DNA of 64,000 bases from an uncultured Candidatus Rokubacteria bacterium. Lineage in GTDB: Bacteria; Methylomirabilota; Methylomirabilia; Rokubacteriales; DASRDR01. The stretch is taken from the NCBI GenBank assembly GCA_963826115.1, contig CAWGVS010000011.1:64001-128000 (forward strand), read 5' to 3'. Below, one piece after another: positions 24,061-30,303 of the stretch (within the stretch, counting starts at the first letter, position 1; the number at the start of each line of letters is the position of its first letter). Under the pieces are notes generated by a model, which worked only from the letters and a program-made list of their open reading frames with translations, searched no databases and was not told the origin of the DNA. A program made the translations under genes and the position numbers.

Positions 24061-25809
24061 TTGCACCGGAGCGACGGCTTGACGCCCCACTGGCACCACC
24101 CGCACCCGCGCGAGGCGGACCTCCTGCCGGCCGTGTCGGCGGAGACGCTGATGGGCCACACGCGCGCGATCGCCGCGTGGGAGCGCGAGTCGGGCACGCT
24201 CGGCGAGGCCCAGGCCTACGACCACATCGAGCGCGCGCTCAAGAGCTACGGCTACGCCGTCGAGCGCCGGGAGATCGAGGCCTACATCAGCCTTCCCCTC
24301 GAGGGCCGCGTGATCCTGCCGGACGGCGGGGTGATCGAGGGGCTCACGCACGCGTTCTCGCCCTCCATCGACGGGCTCGACGCGGAGGTGGTCGACGTCG
24401 GCGACGGGAACCCGGGCGACCTCGCGCGCGCCGCGGGCAAGATCGCGCTGCTCGACAGCCTGGCCACCCCCGGGAAGGCGTGGGCCGCGCAGGAGGCGGG
24501 GACGGTCGGCCAGATCTACGTCAACCGGGACCACCTGCACAACATGATCGTCACCACGATCTGGGGGACGCCGGAGCCCGACACCGCCTGGCGCATCCCG
24601 CGCACGCCCTGCCTCTCGGTCCGCCGCGTGGACGGCGACCGCATTCGCGCGCTGATCCGCGAGGGGCGGGGGCGCGTGCGGCTCGTGACGCGCGTGCGAA
24701 CCGGCTGGACGCCGATCCCGCACCTGACCGCGCACCTCGACGGGACCGCCGAGGACCGCTTCGTCCTGTTCTCGGGGCACGTGGACGGCTGGCACTTCGG
24801 CGCCATGGACAACGGGACGGCGAACGCGACCATGCTGGAGGTGGCGCGGCTGCTGGCGACGAGGCGCGACGCGCTCCGCCGAGGATTCCGCCTGGCGTTC
24901 TGGTCGGGCCACTCGCACGGCCGCTACGCGGGCTCCGCGTGGTACGCGGACCACACCTGGGCGGAGCTCCACCGGCGGTGCGCCGTGCACCTGAACATCG
25001 ACTCCACGGGCGCCCGCGGAGCCACCGACTACTCGGTCGTCCACGCCACCGAGGACGCCCAGAGCTTCGTCGAGAGCGTGGTGCAGGACGTCACGGGCCA
25101 GACCCCGCGGGCCCGGCACTTCCCCCGCGCCGGCGACCAGTCCTTCTGGGGGATCGGCATCCCGTCGGCCCTCATGTCGCTCTCCGGCATCCCGAAGCAG
25201 GACACCGATCTCTCCCGGTGGATGGAGCGCCTCTTCGGCACGGCGGGTTTCCCGTGGTGGTGGCATACGCGGGAGGACACGATCGACAAGATCGATGCCG
25301 ACGTCCTCGCACTCGACACCCGCGTCTATGTGGCGGCGGCGCTCAGGCTGGTGGGCAGCCCGCTGCTCCCGCTGGACTACGGCCGCTTCGCGCGCGCGAT
25401 CCTCGCCACCGCCGAGGAGCTCACCGCCGGCGGGGGATGGGACGCCGGCGCCGCGCTCGACGCGGCGCGGCGGCTCGTCGACCGGGCGTCGGCCTTCCAG
25501 GTGGCGGCGGATGCTCTCGCCGCCGGGAGCGGCCCGGACACCGGGCGCGTGGAGGCGGCCAACCGGGCCATGGTCGGTCTCTCGCGCGCCCTCGTCCCGC
25601 TCTTCTACACGACCGGCGACCGGTTCCACCACGACCTCGCGATCCCGGTGCCCCCGCTCGCGGGCCTCCAGCGGGCGCGGGAGCTGCCGGGTCTCGACCC
25701 CGCGTCCGACCGGTTCCGGTTCTCCGTCGCCGCGCTCGTCCGGGAGCGCAACCGCGTCGTGCATGCCCTGGAGCAGGCCGTCGGGGCGATCGACACCTTC
25801 GATCCGTAG
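24061..25809 (+). CDS. M28 family peptidase with PA domain (alternative TTG start 24079)
   Basis: SGHVDGW, GAMDNGT, WSGHSHGRYAGS, WWHTREDT. Confidence 0.85.
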   Translation: MHRSDGLTPHWHHPHPREADLLPAVSAETLMGHTRAIAAWERESGTLGEAQAYDHIERALKSYGYAVERREIEAYISLPLEGRVILPDGGVIEGLTHAFSPSIDGLDAEVVDVGDGNPGDLARAAGKIALLDSLATPGKAWAAQEAGTVGQIYVNRDHLHNMIVTTIWGTPEPDTAWRIPRTPCLSVRRVDGDRIRALIREGRGRVRLVTRVRTGWTPIPHLTAHLDGTAEDRFVLFSGHVDGWHFGAMDNGTANATMLEVARLLATRRDALRRGFRLAFWSGHSHGRYAGSAWYADHTWAELHRRCAVHLNIDSTGARGATDYSVVHATEDAQSFVESVVQDVTGQTPRARHFPRAGDQSFWGIGIPSALMSLSGIPKQDTDLSRWMERLFGTAGFPWWWHTREDTIDKIDADVLALDTRVYVAAALRLVGSPLLPLDYGRFARAILATAEELTAGGGWDAGAALDAARRLVDRASAFQVAADALAAGSGPDTGRVEAANRAMVGLSRALVPLFYTTGDRFHHDLAIPVPPLAGLQRARELPGLDPASDRFRFSVAALVRERNRVVHALEQAVGAIDTFDP

Positions 25810-25834
25810 CCAGAGAAGAAAGGGAGACAGGCTG

Positions 25835-27436
25835 ATGCCGAGATGGAGCAGCGTGCCGTTCCCGATTCGCGCGGTCCTCGTCTTCGCCCTCGCGGTCGGG
25901 GTGGTCGCCCTCGCGCTGCCCGCCGACGCGCAGAAGCGCGGCGGGACCCTCACGATCGTCCGGCCGACCGACCCGGTGTCCCTCGACCCTCACACCGAGA
26001 CCACGGCGCCGGGGGCGTGGGTCTACTACAACATCCTCGAGCCTCTCATCTATCTCGACGAGAAGATGACGATCCAGCCCCGGCTGGCGACGAGCTACGA
26101 GGTGATGAACCCGACCAAGGTCCGCTTCAAGCTGCGGCCGAACGTGAAGTTCCACGACGGCACGCCCTTCAACGCGGCGGCCGTGAAGTTCACGTTCGAT
26201 CGGGCGTTCAAGAGCGATCCGCCCGCCCGGTGGGCCAGCCTGGCGGGGCCGGTCGCCGGCGCCGAGGTCGTGGACGACCTCACCGTCGACATCGTCACCA
26301 AGGAGCCGTACGGGCCGATCCTCCGCTCCATGGCGATGCTCTACGTGTCCATCGTGTCGCCCACCGCCGTGCAGAAGCAGGGTGAGGGCTTCCTGCGGGC
26401 GCCGGTCGGCACCGGGCCATTCAAGTTCGTGGAGTGGAAGACCAACACCCAGATCGTGATCGAGCGGAACCCCGACTACTGGGGCGAGAAGGCCCTCCTC
26501 GACCGCGTGGTGTTCAAGACGGTGCCCGAGGAAGGCGCGCGGATGATCGGGCTCCAGACGGGGGACGCGGACATGGTCATGTTCCCGTCGCCGGCGCAGC
26601 TCCCGACGTTCCGGAAGGACGCGAAGTACACCGTCCACGAGGCTCCGGGCCTCCGGGTCGTCTACATCGGCTTCAACGCGAAGCTGGCGCCGCTCGACGA
26701 CGTGCGGGTGCGCCAGGCGCTCCTCCAGGCGGTCGACCGCAAGGCCATCATCGACAACATCGTCGAGGGCCTGGGCGTGCCGGCGAAGTCCGTCATCTCG
26801 CCCGGCGTCTTCGGCTACAAGGACATGCAGTTCGACCAGCTCTTCCCCTTCGATCGCGCCAAGGCCAAGGCGCTCCTCGCCCAGGCCGGCTGGGCCCCGG
26901 GCCCGGACGGCATCCTCCAGAAGGGCGGGCAGAAGCTCACCCTGAACTGGATCGCCCAGCGTGGCCGCTACCCGAAGGACGGCGAGATCACCGAGGCCGT
27001 GCAGCAGATGTGGAAGGAGATCGGGGTCGACGCGAAGGTCGAGTTCCGGGAGTGGGCGACCGTCTTCAACGAGTCCCGCAAGCTCGACTGGGGACGGCAC
27101 AACTGGACCTTCGGCTGGGCGACGACCAACGCCGACGCCGACTACTCGCTGTTCGCCCAGTACCATTCGACCCAGCTGACGCCGACCGGCTGGAACCGCA
27201 CCGGGTACGCGAACCCCAAGGTCGACCAGCTGCTCGAGACCGGACGGCGAAGCCTGAACCAGGGCGAGCGGGAGAAGGTCTACGCGGAGGTCCAGGACAT
27301 CCTGGCCAAGGACACGCTCTGGGTTCCCGTGTACAACACGAAGGAGATCATCATCACCCGCGCGAGCGTGAAGGGCTTCGTCATCCACCCGGTCGAGTAC
27401 AACCTCGGCCTCTGGAAGACCTGGGTCGACAAGTAG
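25835..27436 (+). CDS. ABC transporter substrate-binding protein, family 5 (Dpp/Opp/GsiB-like)
   Basis: Signal peptide, LRPNVKFHDGTPFNA, PVGTGPF. Confidence 0.93.
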   Translation: MPRWSSVPFPIRAVLVFALAVGVVALALPADAQKRGGTLTIVRPTDPVSLDPHTETTAPGAWVYYNILEPLIYLDEKMTIQPRLATSYEVMNPTKVRFKLRPNVKFHDGTPFNAAAVKFTFDRAFKSDPPARWASLAGPVAGAEVVDDLTVDIVTKEPYGPILRSMAMLYVSIVSPTAVQKQGEGFLRAPVGTGPFKFVEWKTNTQIVIERNPDYWGEKALLDRVVFKTVPEEGARMIGLQTGDADMVMFPSPAQLPTFRKDAKYTVHEAPGLRVVYIGFNAKLAPLDDVRVRQALLQAVDRKAIIDNIVEGLGVPAKSVISPGVFGYKDMQFDQLFPFDRAKAKALLAQAGWAPGPDGILQKGGQKLTLNWIAQRGRYPKDGEITEAVQQMWKEIGVDAKVEFREWATVFNESRKLDWGRHNWTFGWATTNADADYSLFAQYHSTQLTPTGWNRTGYANPKVDQLLETGRRSLNQGEREKVYAEVQDILAKDTLWVPVYNTKEIIITRASVKGFVIHPVEYNLGLWKTWVDK

Positions 27437-27497: not shown

Positions 27498-28421
27498 ATG
27501 CTGACCTTCCTCGTCCGTCGCCTCCTGCTGACCGTTCCCGTCCTCCTCGGCGTCCTGTTCGTCGTCATGCTGACGATGGACCTCATCCCCGGCGACCCCG
27601 TCGCCCTCATGCTGGGCGACGCGGCATCCAAGGAGAACGTGGCGCGCTTCCGCGAGCACCTCGGCCTCGACCGGCCGCTGGTCGTGCGCTACGTGCGGTA
27701 CATCGGGCAGGTCGTGACCGGCGACCTGGGCCGGTCCATCCAGCAGAACCGGCCGGTCGTGGACGAGCTGGGCGACGCGTGGCCCGCGACGCTCCAGCTC
27801 ACGATCGTGGCGCTCCTGCTGGCGGCGGTGGTGGGCGTCGCGACCGGGATCGTCTCGGCGGTGTGGCCCAACTCCGTGTTCGACGCGCTGTCCCGGCTCT
27901 CCTCGCTCTTCGGGCTCTCGATGCCGGTCTTCTGGACGGGGCTGGTCCTCATCGTCGTCTTCGCGTTCTGGCTGCCTCTCCTGCCGGTGGGCGGCGTGGG
28001 TTCCGCGGCCCACCTCGTCCTGCCGGCGGTGACGCTGGCACTTCCGTCCATCGCGATGATCGCCCGCATGACGCGGTCGAGCGTGCTCGAGGTGCTGCGG
28101 GAGGACTACGTGCGGACCGCCCGCGCCAAGGGGGTGGGGGAGCGGCTGGTGGTGGCCAAGCACGCCCTCCGGAACGCGGCCATCCCGATCCTGACTCTGG
28201 TGGGTTTGCAGGCGGGCCAGCTGATGGGCGGCGCCGTCCTCACCGAGACGGTCTTCGCCTGGCCCGGCCTCGGCCGGCTCATGGTCAAGGCGATCTTCGC
28301 GCGGGACTACGTGCTTCTCCAGGGCGCGGTGCTGATCTTCGCGCTGGCCTTCGTCGTGATCAACCTCATCGTGGATCTCTCGTACGGTGCGCTCGATCCG
28401 CGTGTGTCGCGGCAGGGGTGA
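27498..28421 (+). CDS. ABC transporter permease (DppB-like)
   Basis: PGDP, GLDRP, DYVRTARAKG, ETVFAWPGLG. Confidence 0.93.
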   Translation: MLTFLVRRLLLTVPVLLGVLFVVMLTMDLIPGDPVALMLGDAASKENVARFREHLGLDRPLVVRYVRYIGQVVTGDLGRSIQQNRPVVDELGDAWPATLQLTIVALLLAAVVGVATGIVSAVWPNSVFDALSRLSSLFGLSMPVFWTGLVLIVVFAFWLPLLPVGGVGSAAHLVLPAVTLALPSIAMIARMTRSSVLEVLREDYVRTARAKGVGERLVVAKHALRNAAIPILTLVGLQAGQLMGGAVLTETVFAWPGLGRLMVKAIFARDYVLLQGAVLIFALAFVVINLIVDLSYGALDPRVSRQG

Positions 28422-28424
28422 GAC

Positions 28425-29210
28425 ATGGGAGAGCGACGGTTGCTGGGCGAGGTGGCGATCGTGACCGGGGCGGCCCACGGCATCGGCCGCGCCATCGCGG
28501 TGGAGCTGGCGCGGGAAGGCGCGTCGGTGTGGGCGTGCGACGTCCTCGAGCGCGAGCTGGGCGAGACCCGGCGCGCGGTCGGCGAGCGCGCGGAGGGCCC
28601 GTGCCGCGTGGGGATCGTGAACGTCACCGACCCGCGGCGAGTCTCGGCGTTCGTCGACGAGGCGGTCGCCGCCGAGAAGCGACTCGACATCCTGGTGAAC
28701 TGCGCCGGCGGGGTGGTCGGCCAGACCATGAAGCCGGTGGAGGAGATCACCGACGAGGCCTGGCGCGCGATCTTCGCGGTGAACCTCGACGGCGCGTTCC
28801 ACTTCACGCGCGCGGCGGCGCCCGCCATGAAGACGCGGCGCCGCGGGAGCATCGTGAACATCTCGTCGGGCGCGGGCCGGTCGTACAGCCTCACGGGGAT
28901 CCAGGCCTACGCGAGCGCCAAGGCCGGGCTCATCGGGTTCACGCGCCAGACCGCCCGCGAGCTCGGCGAGCACGGGATCCGCGTCAACTGCGTGGCGCCG
29001 GGCTTCGTGCGCTCGAACCCGTCGAGCGAGAAGCAGTGGCAGGCCATGGGCGAGGCCGGCCAGCGCCGGCTCCTCGACAGCATCGCCCTCCGGCGGCTCG
29101 GCGAGCCCGAGGACATCGCCCGCGCCGTGGCCTTCTTCGCGTCGGACGACGCCCGCTACGTCACCGGCCAGACGATCAGCGTCGACGGCGGCCACTGGAT
29201 GCTGGGGTGA
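28425..29210 (+). CDS. Short-chain dehydrogenase/reductase
   Basis: TGAAHGIG, YASAK, VDGG. Confidence 0.92.
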   Translation: MGERRLLGEVAIVTGAAHGIGRAIAVELAREGASVWACDVLERELGETRRAVGERAEGPCRVGIVNVTDPRRVSAFVDEAVAAEKRLDILVNCAGGVVGQTMKPVEEITDEAWRAIFAVNLDGAFHFTRAAAPAMKTRRRGSIVNISSGAGRSYSLTGIQAYASAKAGLIGFTRQTARELGEHGIRVNCVAPGFVRSNPSSEKQWQAMGEAGQRRLLDSIALRRLGEPEDIARAVAFFASDDARYVTGQTISVDGGHWMLG

Positions 29211-29242
29211 ACGGCCCGTCTTGTCACGCGCGGGTGGCAGCG

Positions 29243-29418
29243 CGGTGAGCCCCCAGGCCGAAGGCCGTCCGATCGACTCCCGCGCCGCCGGGGCCGCCCG
29301 GTGAGCCCCCAGGCCGAAGGCCGTCCGATTGACTCCCGCGCCGCCGGGGCCGCTCGGTGAGCCCCCAGGCCGAAGGCCGTCCGATTGACTCCCGCGCCGC
29401 CGGGGCCGCCCGGTGAGC
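29243..29418 (+). repeat. 56-bp tandem repeat (3 full units + 8 bp); each unit is a GTGA-coupled 19-aa mini-ORF
   Basis: CGGTGAGC recurs at 29243, 29299, 29355, 29411; units differ at only two positions. Confidence 0.95.
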
Positions 29419-30303
29419 GGGGTAGCGATCGAGGCGCTGGCGCCCGTCGCGGTCCGGCCCGACACGCCGGCCGGCGACGCGTGGCGCCGGTTCCGGCGGA
29501 GCCGCCTCGCCGTCGTCGGGCTCCTCATCGTCGCCCTGATCGCGACGGCGGCAGCCGGCGCGCCCTGGCTCGCGCCCCAGGACCCCGCGAAGCAGAGCCT
29601 CATCGAGAAGCGCGCCCGGCCGTTCGGGAAGTACGTCCTGGGCGCCGACGAGTTCGGTCGCGACATCCTGTCCCGGGTGATCTACGGGGCCCGGGTCGCG
29701 CTCCTCGTCGGCCTCCTCTCGGTGGGGATCGCGCTCGGCCTGGGGCTCGTCCTCGGGAGCCTGGCCGGGTTCCTGGGCGGCTGGATCGACGGCGCGATCA
29801 TGCGGGCCGTCGAGGTGCTCCTGGCGTTCCCGTACCTCTTGCTCGCGATCGCCGTCGTGTCGGCGCTCGGACCCGGGGCCCTCAACACGACGATCGCGGT
29901 CGGGATCTGGGGCACACCGCCCGTGACCCGGATCGTCCGCGGCGCCGTGCTCCAGCTCTCCGAGACGGAGTACGTCCGGGCCGCCCGCGCCCTCGGCGCG
30001 GCGGGGCCCGCGCTGGTGGGGCGACACATCCTGCCCAACATCCTCCCGACCGTGATCGTCTACGGCACGCTCTTCATGGCGAACGCGATCCTGGTCGAGG
30101 CCGCGCTCTCCTTCCTCGGCCTCGGGGTCCAGCCGCCCACGCCGTCCTGGGGGCTCATGGTGGCGACCGGACGCGACTTCCTGCTGGTCACGCCCCACAT
30201 CACGACGATCCCGGGGCTCGCCATCATGCTGGCGGTGCTCGGCTTCAACCTCCTGGGGGACGGCCTGCGCGACGCCCTCGACCCGCGCCTCCGCGGCGCG
30301 TGA
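29413..30303 (+). CDS. ABC transporter permease (DppC-like)
   Basis: LGADEFGRD, EYVRAARALGA, LSFLGLG, GDGLRDALDPR. Confidence 0.93.
   Translation: MSGVAIEALAPVAVRPDTPAGDAWRRFRRSRLAVVGLLIVALIATAAAGAPWLAPQDPAKQSLIEKRARPFGKYVLGADEFGRDILSRVIYGARVALLVGLLSVGIALGLGLVLGSLAGFLGGWIDGAIMRAVEVLLAFPYLLLAIAVVSALGPGALNTTIAVGIWGTPPVTRIVRGAVLQLSETEYVRAARALGAAGPALVGRHILPNILPTVIVYGTLFMANAILVEAALSFLGLGVQPPTPSWGLMVATGRDFLLVTPHITTIPGLAIMLAVLGFNLLGDGLRDALDPRLRGA

What the first reader, a model, noticed from the sequence alone, without database searches (positions are those of the whole stretch)
29207..29416. Tandem repeat that is a chain of translationally coupled mini-ORFs (ribosome relay)
Seen: the SDR stop (GTGA, 29207-29210) opens a 13-aa ORF ending in GTGA at 29245-29248; three 19-aa ORFs follow (29245-29304, 29301-29360, 29357-29416), each MSPQAEGRPIDSRAAGAAR, each stop overlapping the next GTG, the last overlapping the permease start at 29413. 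The 56-bp period (20 codons minus the 4-nt overlap) keeps the chain intact at any copy number, and both variable positions are synonymous (ATC/ATT, GCC/GCT). No SD precedes the permease. Inference: a copy-number-tunable termination-reinitiation relay that sets DppC dosage, or a repeat element tolerated because it preserves coupling. I know of no described system like this; two synonymous changes alone are weak evidence of selection.
Basis: partly seen in the sequence, partly recalled or inferred. Interest (0 to 1): 0.82.

Follow-up and report, generated by a model that had tools for sequence, protein, structure and literature searches.

The report
MIRU-like mini-cistron repeat in Rokubacteria
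The three-copy 56-base repeat between two transporter-operon genes is a locally amplified copy of a small mobile element, found in a few soil Rokubacteria, that carries its own tiny reading frame so that ribosomes can pass from one gene to the next, a design already described for the MIRU repeats of mycobacteria.

Summary
Window 29236-29418 is a 56-bp repeat of 3.3 copies. From the SDR stop to the DppC-like start, a 13-codon ORF and three 19-codon ORFs each overlap the next by GTGA.

It is not a one-off device. The unit belongs to a dispersed family with a 20-nt core, CAGGCCGAAGGCCGTCCGAT. The family has 18 copies at 14 loci in this genome. It occurs in 15 of 251 genomes of the phylum sampled, in only two genera.

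The canonical element is 56 nt long and sense-oriented. It lies just upstream of a gene start and is flanked by a TGAGC direct repeat. It carries a 19-codon ORF with NTGA at both ends.

Orthologous junctions in relatives are empty (ATGA overlap), hold one unit, or hold other spacers. Every spacer over 30 nt is bridged by an ORF with -4 overlaps.

This is the design published for mycobacterial MIRUs, so "no described system" is wrong. Peptide selection is not supported. Dosage tuning by copy number is untested.

Verdict: a new MIRU-like family in an uncultured phylum. Relay function is plausible and has comparative support, but is unproven.

The parts
25295..27436 (+). Solute-binding protein gene of the ABC transporter operon. 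The start codon is uncertain; this is the longest ORF.
   Evidence: Pfam SBP_bac_5, E 1.3e-100.
27498..28421 (+). DppB-type permease gene.
   Evidence: Pfam BPD_transp_1 and BPD_transp_1_N.
28425..29210 (+). Short-chain dehydrogenase/reductase gene. Its TGA stop at 29208-29210 is overlapped by GTG at 29207.
   Evidence: Pfam adh_short_C2 and adh_short; sequence. The gene order SDR then dppC is kept in 9 of 13 genus relatives searched; G000 and its own second copy of the gene pair are not counted.
29207..29248 (+). Leader mini-ORF of 13 codons with GTGA at both ends. It spans 38 nt, which is 3n+2. It may be a decayed partial unit.
   Evidence: Alignment to a unit scores 20, against 12.4 +/- 3.2 for shuffles; 19 of 500 shuffles reach it.
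29245..29300 (+). Unit 1 (56 nt). Its 19-codon ORF runs 29245-29304.
29301..29356 (+). Unit 2 (56 nt). Its 19-codon ORF runs 29301-29360.
29357..29412 (+). Unit 3 (56 nt). Its 19-codon ORF runs 29357-29416, and its stop overlaps the DppC start.
29254..29273 (+). The 20-nt family core in unit 1, holding a small hairpin GGCC-GAA-GGCC. The same core lies at 29310-29329 and 29366-29385.
   Evidence: Exact pattern matches at G000:C11:93254, 93310 and 93366.
29414..29418 (+). TGAGC pentamer that closes the array. The same pentamer lies at 29246-29250, 29302-29306 and 29358-29362. It is the direct repeat flanking each unit.
   Evidence: Sequence. 17 of 19 canonical units have the same pentamer at both ends. 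Filled and empty sites are compared.
29413..30303 (+). DppC-type permease gene with a GTG start.
   Evidence: Pfam BPD_transp_1 and OppC_N. Its N-terminus aligns with those of the orthologues.

Best explanation
The array is a local threefold amplification of a small mobile or formerly mobile element family, specific to a narrow group of Rokubacteria (phylum Methylomirabilota).

The canonical element adds 56 nt at a TGAGC that forms the stop/start overlap (RTGAGC) of two co-oriented genes, or the start of a gene. After insertion:
- the old start codon opens a 19-codon ORF inside the element;
- the element's last G plus the repeated TGAGC makes a new GTG start for the downstream gene;
- that new start overlaps the mini-ORF's TGA by 4 nt.

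A ribosome finishing the upstream gene can therefore restart on the mini-ORF and be handed on to the downstream gene, so the insertion costs little. Because each unit is 3n+2 long and ends in the same GTGAGC, tandem duplication by slippage or unequal exchange keeps the chain intact. That is how three near-identical units can sit between the SDR gene and dppC.

Shown: family membership, orientation, architecture, filled and empty sites, and variation at orthologous junctions.
Inferred: mobility, the mechanism of duplication, actual translation of the mini-ORFs, and selection for the relay.

This works like a mycobacterial MIRU. It is not shown to be related to MIRUs by sequence.
For: 1. Family. 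nhmmer built from the units finds 15 hits at 11 loci in the own genome. The 24-nt core with up to 3 mismatches gives 18 copies at 14 loci.

2. Distribution. The 20-nt core occurs in 15 of 251 genomes of the phylum sampled: genus g1 in 13 of 14 genomes and genus g6 in 1 of 1. It is absent from 0 of 159 genomes of family f2. The reversed-pattern control gives 0. By my count, 58 of the 80 record titles shown in the genome-contig scan name Rokubacteria or Methylomirabilota MAGs.

3. Orientation. At 13 of 14 own-genome loci the next gene downstream is co-oriented. No copy lies inside the 3' two-thirds of a called gene.

4. Architecture. Of 14 copies with NTGA 9 nt before the core, 10 have the in-frame stop at +48 as GTGA. 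There are 19 distinct 56-nt units at 17 loci. At 13 of the 16 loci outside the window, a long ORF with coding-type GC1/2/3 starts at the unit's terminal GTG.

5. Filled and empty sites.
- Locus C5:1527520 is empty, ATGAGC|ATCGAT, in G014, G012, G013 and G008. It is filled with a 56-nt unit, ATGAGC...GTGAGC, in G011.
- The mraZ-rsmH junction is empty in 7 genomes and filled in 6.
- The SDR-dppC junction is a plain ATGA overlap in G003, holds one canonical unit in G010, and holds three here.

6. Direct repeat. 17 of 19 units have the same pentamer at both ends, including one unit with TGACC/TGACC.

7. Relay kept across alleles.
- SDR-dppC spacers of 32, 56, 95, 143 (two genomes), 152 and 206 nt are all bridged by ORFs with -4 overlaps at both ends.
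- mraZ-rsmH inserts of 29 (two genomes), 80 and 101 nt are bridged likewise, and the G000 allele is an in-frame fusion.
- In four further multi-core loci, the gene-proximal ORF overlaps the gene start by 4 nt in 4 of 4.

8. The three window units share a 3' half seen in no other copy, and differ at only 2 of 56 positions. This points to local duplication rather than repeated insertion.

9. Published parallel. [quoted passage not shown] MIRUs are 40-100 bp, in 40-50 copies, with tetranucleotide direct repeats at filled sites and ORFs overlapping the adjacent genes (PMC3184786, passage). Tandem 77-bp and 53-bp MIRUs lie between senX3 and regX3 (PMC4213456, passage).
Against: - There are no expression or ribosome data. 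Translation of the mini-ORFs is inferred.

- In a 72% G+C genome, open frames and NTGA motifs are common. A blind frame-walk from every core reached a coding ORF about as often in the two control frames (46 and 40 of 146) as in the mini-ORF frame (53 of 146).

- Among my rough gene calls, 464 of 952 co-directional neighbours with a minimal gap of 20-249 nt already have gap = 1 mod 3. That is the class a 3n+2 spacer gives. The chance background for the allele series is therefore near 0.5, not 1/3. The alleles are also not all independent.

- Counter-examples to a strict relay:
  - the own-genome copy at C5:1527520 is 57 nt with a TAG 9 nt before the GTG;
  - unit 1 of a two-unit array in G005:C70 is cut by TAA at codon 6;
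  - the first ORF in G012:C14 ends 4 nt before the next start;
  - the G001 mraZ-rsmH allele leads into an off-frame ORF;
  - G004 has a plain 12-nt spacer at SDR-dppC.

- No transposase or recombinase is linked to the family. Y1_Tnp is not found in the own genome.

- The copy number in the window is not confirmed by reads.
Confidence: 0.67

Rival explanations
1. A dedicated, copy-number-tunable regulator. Each termination-reinitiation step loses ribosomes, so the number of units sets how much DppC is made relative to the upstream genes, and the array is kept for that purpose.
For: The chain is intact through four steps. Only a weak SD-like G run precedes the DppC start, at -5.0 kcal/mol. The junction differs in length between species.
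Against: The orthologous junction holds 0 units (G003), 1 unit (G010) or unrelated spacers in relatives, so no particular copy number is conserved. The same element sits at unrelated junctions such as mraZ-rsmH and an sdh-like operon. DppB and DppC are partner permeases of one ABC importer (established knowledge), so attenuating only DppC has no obvious benefit. No strain-level copy-number data could be obtained.
Confidence: 0.1
2. The repeat is real, but the ORF chain is a by-product of high G+C and of the element's ends. DppC is initiated independently, and the element acts, if at all, as a nucleic-acid signal: a small hairpin serving as a protein-binding, processing or mRNA-stability site, as with REP elements in operons.
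For: - The 20-nt core is far better conserved than the rest of the unit, and occurs in other element classes without the mini-ORF context.
- By my hand tally of the 245 listed core copies, the hairpin loop's middle base is the most variable position, with 19 changes. Stem positions 8 and 14 change together to a T-A pair in 4 copies.
- The frame-walk test did not single out the mini-ORF frame.
Against: - The units fold no better than shuffles, with z from -0.36 to +1.26 for single units and +0.71 for the array.
- There is no Rfam match.
- The stem is only 4 bp.
- Strict sense orientation (13 of 14 loci), and insert alleles at two junctions that almost all keep a bridging ORF, are not expected of a pure DNA or RNA signal.
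Confidence: 0.15
3. The 19-residue peptide itself is the functional product, made in three copies.
For: All three units encode the same peptide, and the two differences between units are synonymous. The N-terminal PQAEGRPI is common in the family.
Against: - PQAEGRPI is encoded by the nucleotide core, which is also conserved where it is not in an ORF with a start.
- The C-terminal half differs freely between copies.
- Within the core hairpin, second codon positions changed 43 times, third positions 23 and first positions 13 (my hand tally).
- Truncated 10-codon versions lacking the core persist at mraZ-rsmH.
Confidence: 0.03
4. The array, or its copy number, is an assembly artefact.
For: No public contig spans the array, and short-read contigs end inside it.
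Against: - Contigs of related strains cover both junctions: 28800-29266, 28970-29273 and 29070-29253 on the left, and 29389-29900 on the right.
- The genome is in 12 contigs of up to 2.1 Mb.
- Two-unit arrays of the same element exist in other genomes.
- The units differ at two positions in a pattern a collapse or expansion error would not make.
Confidence: 0.05

Closest known systems
MIRU (mycobacterial interspersed repetitive units; Supply et al. 1997, known here only through passages in PMC12548453, PMC3184786 and PMC4213456)
   Same: - Both are short (40-100 bp) dispersed repeats in intergenic regions of operons, in the same orientation as the genes.
[quoted passage not shown]
- Short direct repeats flank filled sites.
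- Empty sites exist in relatives.
- Tandem copies occur between two genes of one operon. Unit lengths of 77 and 53 bp are also 3n+2.
   Different: - The host is a different phylum (Rokubacteria MAGs, not Mycobacterium).
- Sequence relatedness to MIRUs was not tested.
- The unit here is 56 nt, with a 20-nt invariant core holding a 4-bp hairpin and a 5-nt TGAGC repeat.
- Strain-level copy-number variation, the practical hallmark of MIRU-VNTR loci, was not shown.
- The promoter activity reported for the senX3-regX3 MIRUs (PMC4213456) has no counterpart in a sigma-70 scan here.
REP/BIME elements with RAYT transposases
   Same: Both are small G+C-rich hairpin-bearing repeats between genes of operons, restricted to particular lineages and present in tens of copies.
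   Different: - The elements here are sense-oriented only and carry an ORF with start and stop.
- The stem is only 4 bp.
- No Y1_Tnp (PF01797) gene is found in the 99%-complete own genome.
Coupled short upstream ORFs that deliver ribosomes to a downstream gene ('bicistronic design'; review PMC12548453)
   Same: A short ORF overlapping the start of the main gene by 4 nt is thought to hand the ribosome on, with little need for an SD.
   Different: Here the short ORF is part of a repeated, apparently mobile unit, and is chained up to four times.
Rickettsia palindromic elements (recalled from memory, no call)
   Same: Both are small repeats tolerated inside translated sequence. Two 57-nt variants of the present element are read in frame inside a long ORF in G003:C8.
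   Different: The usual state here is a separate mini-cistron, not an in-frame insertion. No relation was tested.

Membership tests
MIRU-type element (by design) | Short unit (40-100 bp) dispersed in many copies, in intergenic regions between co-oriented genes. | tested here: met
   The unit is 56 nt. There are 18 copies at 14 loci in the own genome, and 13 of 14 loci have a co-oriented gene next downstream. Other genomes of the genus hold up to 77 copies.
MIRU-type element (by design) | The unit contains an ORF whose start and stop overlap those of the flanking ORFs, in the genes' direction. | tested here: met
   10 of 14 copies with NTGA at -9 end in GTGA at +48. There are 19 units at 17 loci. 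At 13 of 16 loci a coding ORF starts at the terminal GTG.
MIRU-type element (by design) | Filled and empty sites in relatives, with a short direct repeat at the filled site. | tested here: met
   Three junctions were compared. The TGAGC pentamer is identical at both ends in 17 of 19 units.
MIRU-type element (by design) | Variable number of tandem copies between strains (VNTR). | tested here: inconclusive
   Between species there are 0, 1 and 3 units at one junction, and two-unit arrays occur elsewhere. No strain-level data exist: contigs break in the array, and the metagenome scan found only chance hits.
MIRU-type element (by design) | Co-transcription with the flanking genes. | not testable with these tools
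   No RNA run held the stretch; the best RNA share was 0.04. No terminator-like site lies in 28800-29800.
MIRU family proper (by descent) | Sequence similarity to the mycobacterial MIRU consensus, and occurrence in Mycobacterium. | not tested
   No MIRU sequence was available from a tool. The host here is a Rokubacteria MAG. I therefore file this as working like a MIRU, not as a member of the MIRU family.
REP/RAYT system | A Y1 (RAYT) transposase gene in the genome, with repeats in both orientations. | tested here: not met
   PF01797 has 0 matches in the own genome, while the control genomes ring in 6 of 14. Copies are sense-oriented.
Described structured RNA family (Rfam) | A match to a curated covariance model. 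| tested here: not met
   There were 0 matches at E<=1 on 8 loci holding family copies, and 0 at E<=0.1 on 5 loci of the long composite class.

The most novel reading that the evidence does not exclude
In this lineage, ribosome hand-over through short bridging ORFs is a selected, general way of joining operon genes. A dedicated mobile mini-cistron has evolved to exploit it by targeting TGAGC at stop/start overlaps. Arrays such as this one then act as evolvable spacers whose unit number changes the ratio of downstream to upstream protein.

Hints beyond the element itself:
- Unrelated-looking spacers at the SDR-dppC junction are also bridged with -4 overlaps at both ends.
- Genome-wide, the bridging ORF that starts on a gene's stop ends on a start-overlapped TGA in 127 of 159 pairs of the right phase. 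The figure is 26 of 64 in the two control phases.
Probability: 0.2. Interest if true: 0.7.

Novelty: new member of a known kind. Interest (0 to 1): 0.5.

Why it matters
How MIRUs move is not stated in the passages I read, which say only that they appear to be mobile and that filled sites suggest transposition (PMC12548453, PMC3184786); the proposal that their mini-ORFs preserve translational coupling dates from Supply et al. 1997.

A second family of the same design in an unrelated, uncultured phylum, if independent (relatedness to MIRUs was not tested), would suggest that the mini-cistron that restores coupling is a repeatable solution, not a mycobacterial oddity. This family also offers cleaner material. 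It has a sharply defined 56-nt unit, a 5-nt target repeat that coincides with the commonest stop/start overlap of the host (RTGAGC, 54 of 232 overlaps by 4 nt), an invariant 20-nt core with a small hairpin, and several junctions with whole series of alleles.

That makes two questions testable:
- What enzyme or process inserts such elements at start codons?
- How efficiently does a ribosome pass through one to four coupled mini-ORFs?

For annotation, it warns that such arrays in high-G+C metagenome genomes are neither non-coding spacers nor small protein genes.

Tried and rejected
RNA family and structure. Rfam gave no match on 8 family loci or on 5 loci of the long composite class. Folding the array and single units gave energies no better than shuffles. 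I therefore dropped the idea of a large structured RNA.

Promoter and terminator scan of 28800-29800: nothing found, and nothing in the shuffles either. This is uninformative for an organism whose promoters are unknown.

REP/RAYT idea: no Y1_Tnp in the own genome.

Reads. The look-up of sequencing runs found no run holding more than 0.24 of the sampled words. Laying four soil runs (all contigs) showed pieces reaching into the array from both sides, but none across it, and no joint skipping 56 or 112 nt. This gives no evidence on copy number either way. No RNA evidence could be had.

Metagenome scan with a 23-nt piece specific to the window's unit variant: 7 stretches, all unrelated coding sequence on inspection. 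No other carrier of this variant was found in that collection.

Blind frame-walk from all 146 usable core copies: 53, 46 and 40 successes in the three frames. The test cannot separate the mini-ORF frame from the controls, because the sample mixes element classes and chance hits, and because -4 chains cycle through the frames. I do not use it as support.

Genome-wide phase analysis. This rests on my own crude gene calls: 4160 ORFs chosen by GC1/2/3 pattern, with starts not predicted. The phase-2 class is depleted by the calling method. I use the analysis only as a background rate and as a lead.

Peptide selection: rejected. The position tallies were made by hand from the 245 listed sequences. 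A further 60 were not listed, and small counting errors are possible.

Leader 29207-29244 as a decayed unit: weak (19 of 500 shuffles reach the score). Left open.

Literature. The library searches for Rokubacteria or Methylomirabilota repeats and for 'MIRU-like' returned nothing relevant. From this I say only that I found no description in that library. Supply et al. 1997 is not held, so its content is cited through the passages of three later papers. One search was an unhelpful search. Supplementary files were not consulted.

Scripts 20 and 21 failed through my own bugs, an exception and an endless loop. They were rerun correctly.
Full report
**What is there**

The window lies in a 6.24-Mb, 72% G+C genome of 12 contigs. 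Record titles of other carriers of the same repeat place it among Rokubacteria (Methylomirabilota) MAGs from soil.

Around the finding lies an ABC-importer operon on the + strand:
- a solute-binding protein gene (25295-27436),
- a DppB-type permease gene (27498-28421),
- an SDR gene (28425-29210),
- the repeat,
- a DppC-type permease gene (29413-30303).

Tandem Repeats Finder reports 29236-29418, period 56, 3.3 copies, 96% matches. GTG at 29207 overlaps the SDR stop. A 13-codon ORF and three identical 19-codon ORFs follow, each ending in a GTGA that opens the next. The last opens dppC. The two differences between units are synonymous.

The genome has a canonical anti-SD. The 22 nt before the dppC start pair with it only weakly, at -5.0 kcal/mol against -11.2 for the SDR start.

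**It is one copy of a dispersed family**

A BLAST of the array against the own genome, followed by an iterated nhmmer search, found related single copies at ten other loci. With the 24-nt core and up to three mismatches there are 18 copies at 14 loci, and the reversed pattern finds none in this genome.

The full-length consensus is about 56 nt. It begins with (A/G)TGAGC, holds the invariant core CAGGCCGAAGGCCGTCCGAT, and ends just before a second GTGAGC. The window's units share the 5' 40 nt with this consensus, but they have a 3' part of their own.

At 13 of the 14 own-genome loci the next gene downstream is co-oriented. No copy lies within the 3' two-thirds of a called gene.

The exact 20-nt core occurs in 15 of 251 genomes sampled from the phylum. 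All carriers belong to two genera of one family: g1 in 13 of 14 genomes, and g6 in 1 of 1 with 74 copies. It occurs in 0 of 159 genomes of the neighbouring family.

**Architecture of the canonical element**

In 106 core-bearing stretches from public genomes, 14 have NTGA nine bases before the core. In 10 of those 14 the frame opened by that start closes 48 nt after the core's first base, in a GTGA. I found 19 distinct 56-nt units of this kind at 17 loci.

At 13 of the 16 loci outside the window, a long ORF with the coding pattern of G+C at codon positions starts at the unit's terminal GTG. At 8 of 16 the unit's TGA is the stop of a real upstream gene. The element thus sits at gene starts, often at stop/start overlaps.

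17 of 19 units have the same pentamer at both ends. It is usually TGAGC, and once TGACC at both ends.

**Filled and empty sites**

- Locus C5:1527520. Four relatives have the bare overlap ATGAGC followed directly by the gene. G011 has a 56-nt unit between ATGAGC and GTGAGC. The own genome has a 57-nt version.
- mraZ-rsmH. Seven genomes have the bare overlap and six have an insert.
- SDR-dppC. G003 has ATGA, G010 has one canonical unit, and the window has three plus a 38-nt leader.

The simplest reading is insertion of about 51 nt with duplication of TGAGC. The element's last G then turns the duplicated TG into a new GTG start. RTGAGC is the commonest hexamer at 4-nt overlaps in this genome, at 54 of 232 by my rough gene calls.

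The three window units differ at only 2 of 56 positions and share a private 3' half. I therefore infer local tandem duplication, not three separate insertions.

**Is the relay more than an accident of high G+C?**

For:
- At SDR-dppC, every spacer longer than 30 nt is spanned by ORFs with 4-nt overlaps at both ends. The spacers are 32, 56, 95, 143 (two genomes), 152 and 206 nt. The only unbridged case is a 12-nt spacer.
- At mraZ-rsmH, inserts of 29 (two genomes), 80 and 101 nt are bridged likewise. One allele is an in-frame extension and one (53 nt) is ambiguous.
- In four further multi-core loci, the ORF next to the gene overlaps its start by 4 nt in all four.

Against:
- The alleles are not independent.
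- Among my rough gene calls, 464 of 952 close co-directional pairs already fall in the matching phase.
- A blind frame-walk did not favour the mini-ORF frame.
- Broken units exist: a TAA in unit 1 of a two-unit array between dppB-like and dppC-like genes in G005, a 57-nt allele in the own genome, and a 4-nt gap in G012.

I conclude that continuity of translation into the downstream gene is probably selected, chiefly for the gene-proximal unit. It is not proven.

**What is conserved is nucleic acid, not peptide**

The C-terminal half of the 19-residue product varies freely. I tallied by hand the 245 listed core copies from ten genomes of the genus.
- Within the small hairpin GGCC-GAA-GGCC, the middle loop base changed 19 times. 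This base is a second codon position.
- Stem positions 8 and 14 changed 12 times each.
- In four copies, positions 8 and 14 changed together to a T-A pair.
- Summed over the hairpin, second codon positions changed 43 times, third positions 23 and first positions 13.

The core also occurs in other contexts:
- a long composite repeat in one genome (G019),
- copies flanked by sub-repeats of its two halves,
- short arrays of the core alone with periods of 21-29 nt.

None of these matches Rfam. The units do not fold better than shuffles. No Y1 transposase gene is present. What recognises the core is unknown.

**Comparison with what is known**

[quoted passage not shown] This likely minimises the effect on expression (PMC12548453, passage read; its reference is Supply et al. 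1997).

A 2011 review gives their size (40-100 bp) and copy number (40-50). It also notes tetranucleotide direct repeats at filled sites, and ORFs whose ends overlap the adjacent genes (PMC3184786, passage). The senX3-regX3 spacer holds three 77-bp units, or two 77-bp and one 53-bp, and has promoter activity (PMC4213456, passages).

All these traits except strain-level variation and co-transcription were found here (see the membership table). Sequence relatedness to MIRUs was not tested, so I class the element as working like a MIRU, not as a MIRU. I found no description of such elements in Rokubacteria in the library searched.

**Verdict**

The thing is a new family of a known kind of element. 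The claim of a system without precedent, and the hint of peptide selection, do not hold. Dosage tuning by copy number remains an untested possibility.

The most interesting lead that emerged is wider than the array. Bridging ORFs at operon junctions may be common and selected in this genome.

Noticed in passing
G000 genome-wide: Among rough gene calls, co-directional neighbours with short gaps favour the phase gap = 1 mod 3: 229 of 430 at 0-19 nt and 229 of 432 at 20-59 nt. In that phase, the ORF that starts on the upstream stop ends on a start-overlapped TGA in 127 of 159 pairs. In the other two phases the figure is 26 of 64. Bridging ORFs may be a general feature of operon junctions here, or an effect of my crude gene calling.
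   Followed up: partly
L120, L125, L135, L139 and other loci from one Rokubacteria MAG (G019-like): The same 20-nt core occurs two or three times inside a much longer composite repeat of some 200-300 nt, which has further palindromes. That genome holds 74 core copies. There is no Rfam match. Its relation to the 56-nt element is unknown.
   Followed up: partly
L197 = G003:C8:1766900-1768100, minus strand: Two tandem 57-nt variants of the element are read in frame inside one long open frame. They appear to link two coding stretches, so the element may also persist as translated linker sequence.
   Followed up: partly
G000:C5:2040125-2041892: The own genome holds a second SDR-dppC pair, 86-87% identical in DNA to the window's. 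Its 95-nt spacer is unrelated in sequence and is bridged by a 32-codon ORF. The genome's estimated contamination is 5.3%, so this may be a paralogue or a second strain.
   Followed up: no
window 28425-29210: An SDR gene sits between the two permease genes of an ABC importer. This unusual order is conserved in 9 of the 13 genus relatives searched.
   Followed up: no
L079 (contig titled uncultured Actinomycetota MAG) and L045/L056/L063 (uncultured bacterium): Canonical copies of the element occur in records not labelled Rokubacteria. L056 shares its flanking gene with the own-genome locus C6:514242. Mislabelling or mis-binning seems likelier than transfer, but I did not check.
   Followed up: no
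G000 contigs: 12 of the 14 element loci lie on the + strand of their contigs.
   Followed up: no
G000:C5:1482831-1482913 and L200 = G004:C11:223500-224500: Arrays of the 24-nt core alone, with a period divisible by 3, lie just before gene starts. In G004 they form a 49-codon ORF with 4-nt overlaps at both ends, before an ABC ATPase-like gene.
   Followed up: partly
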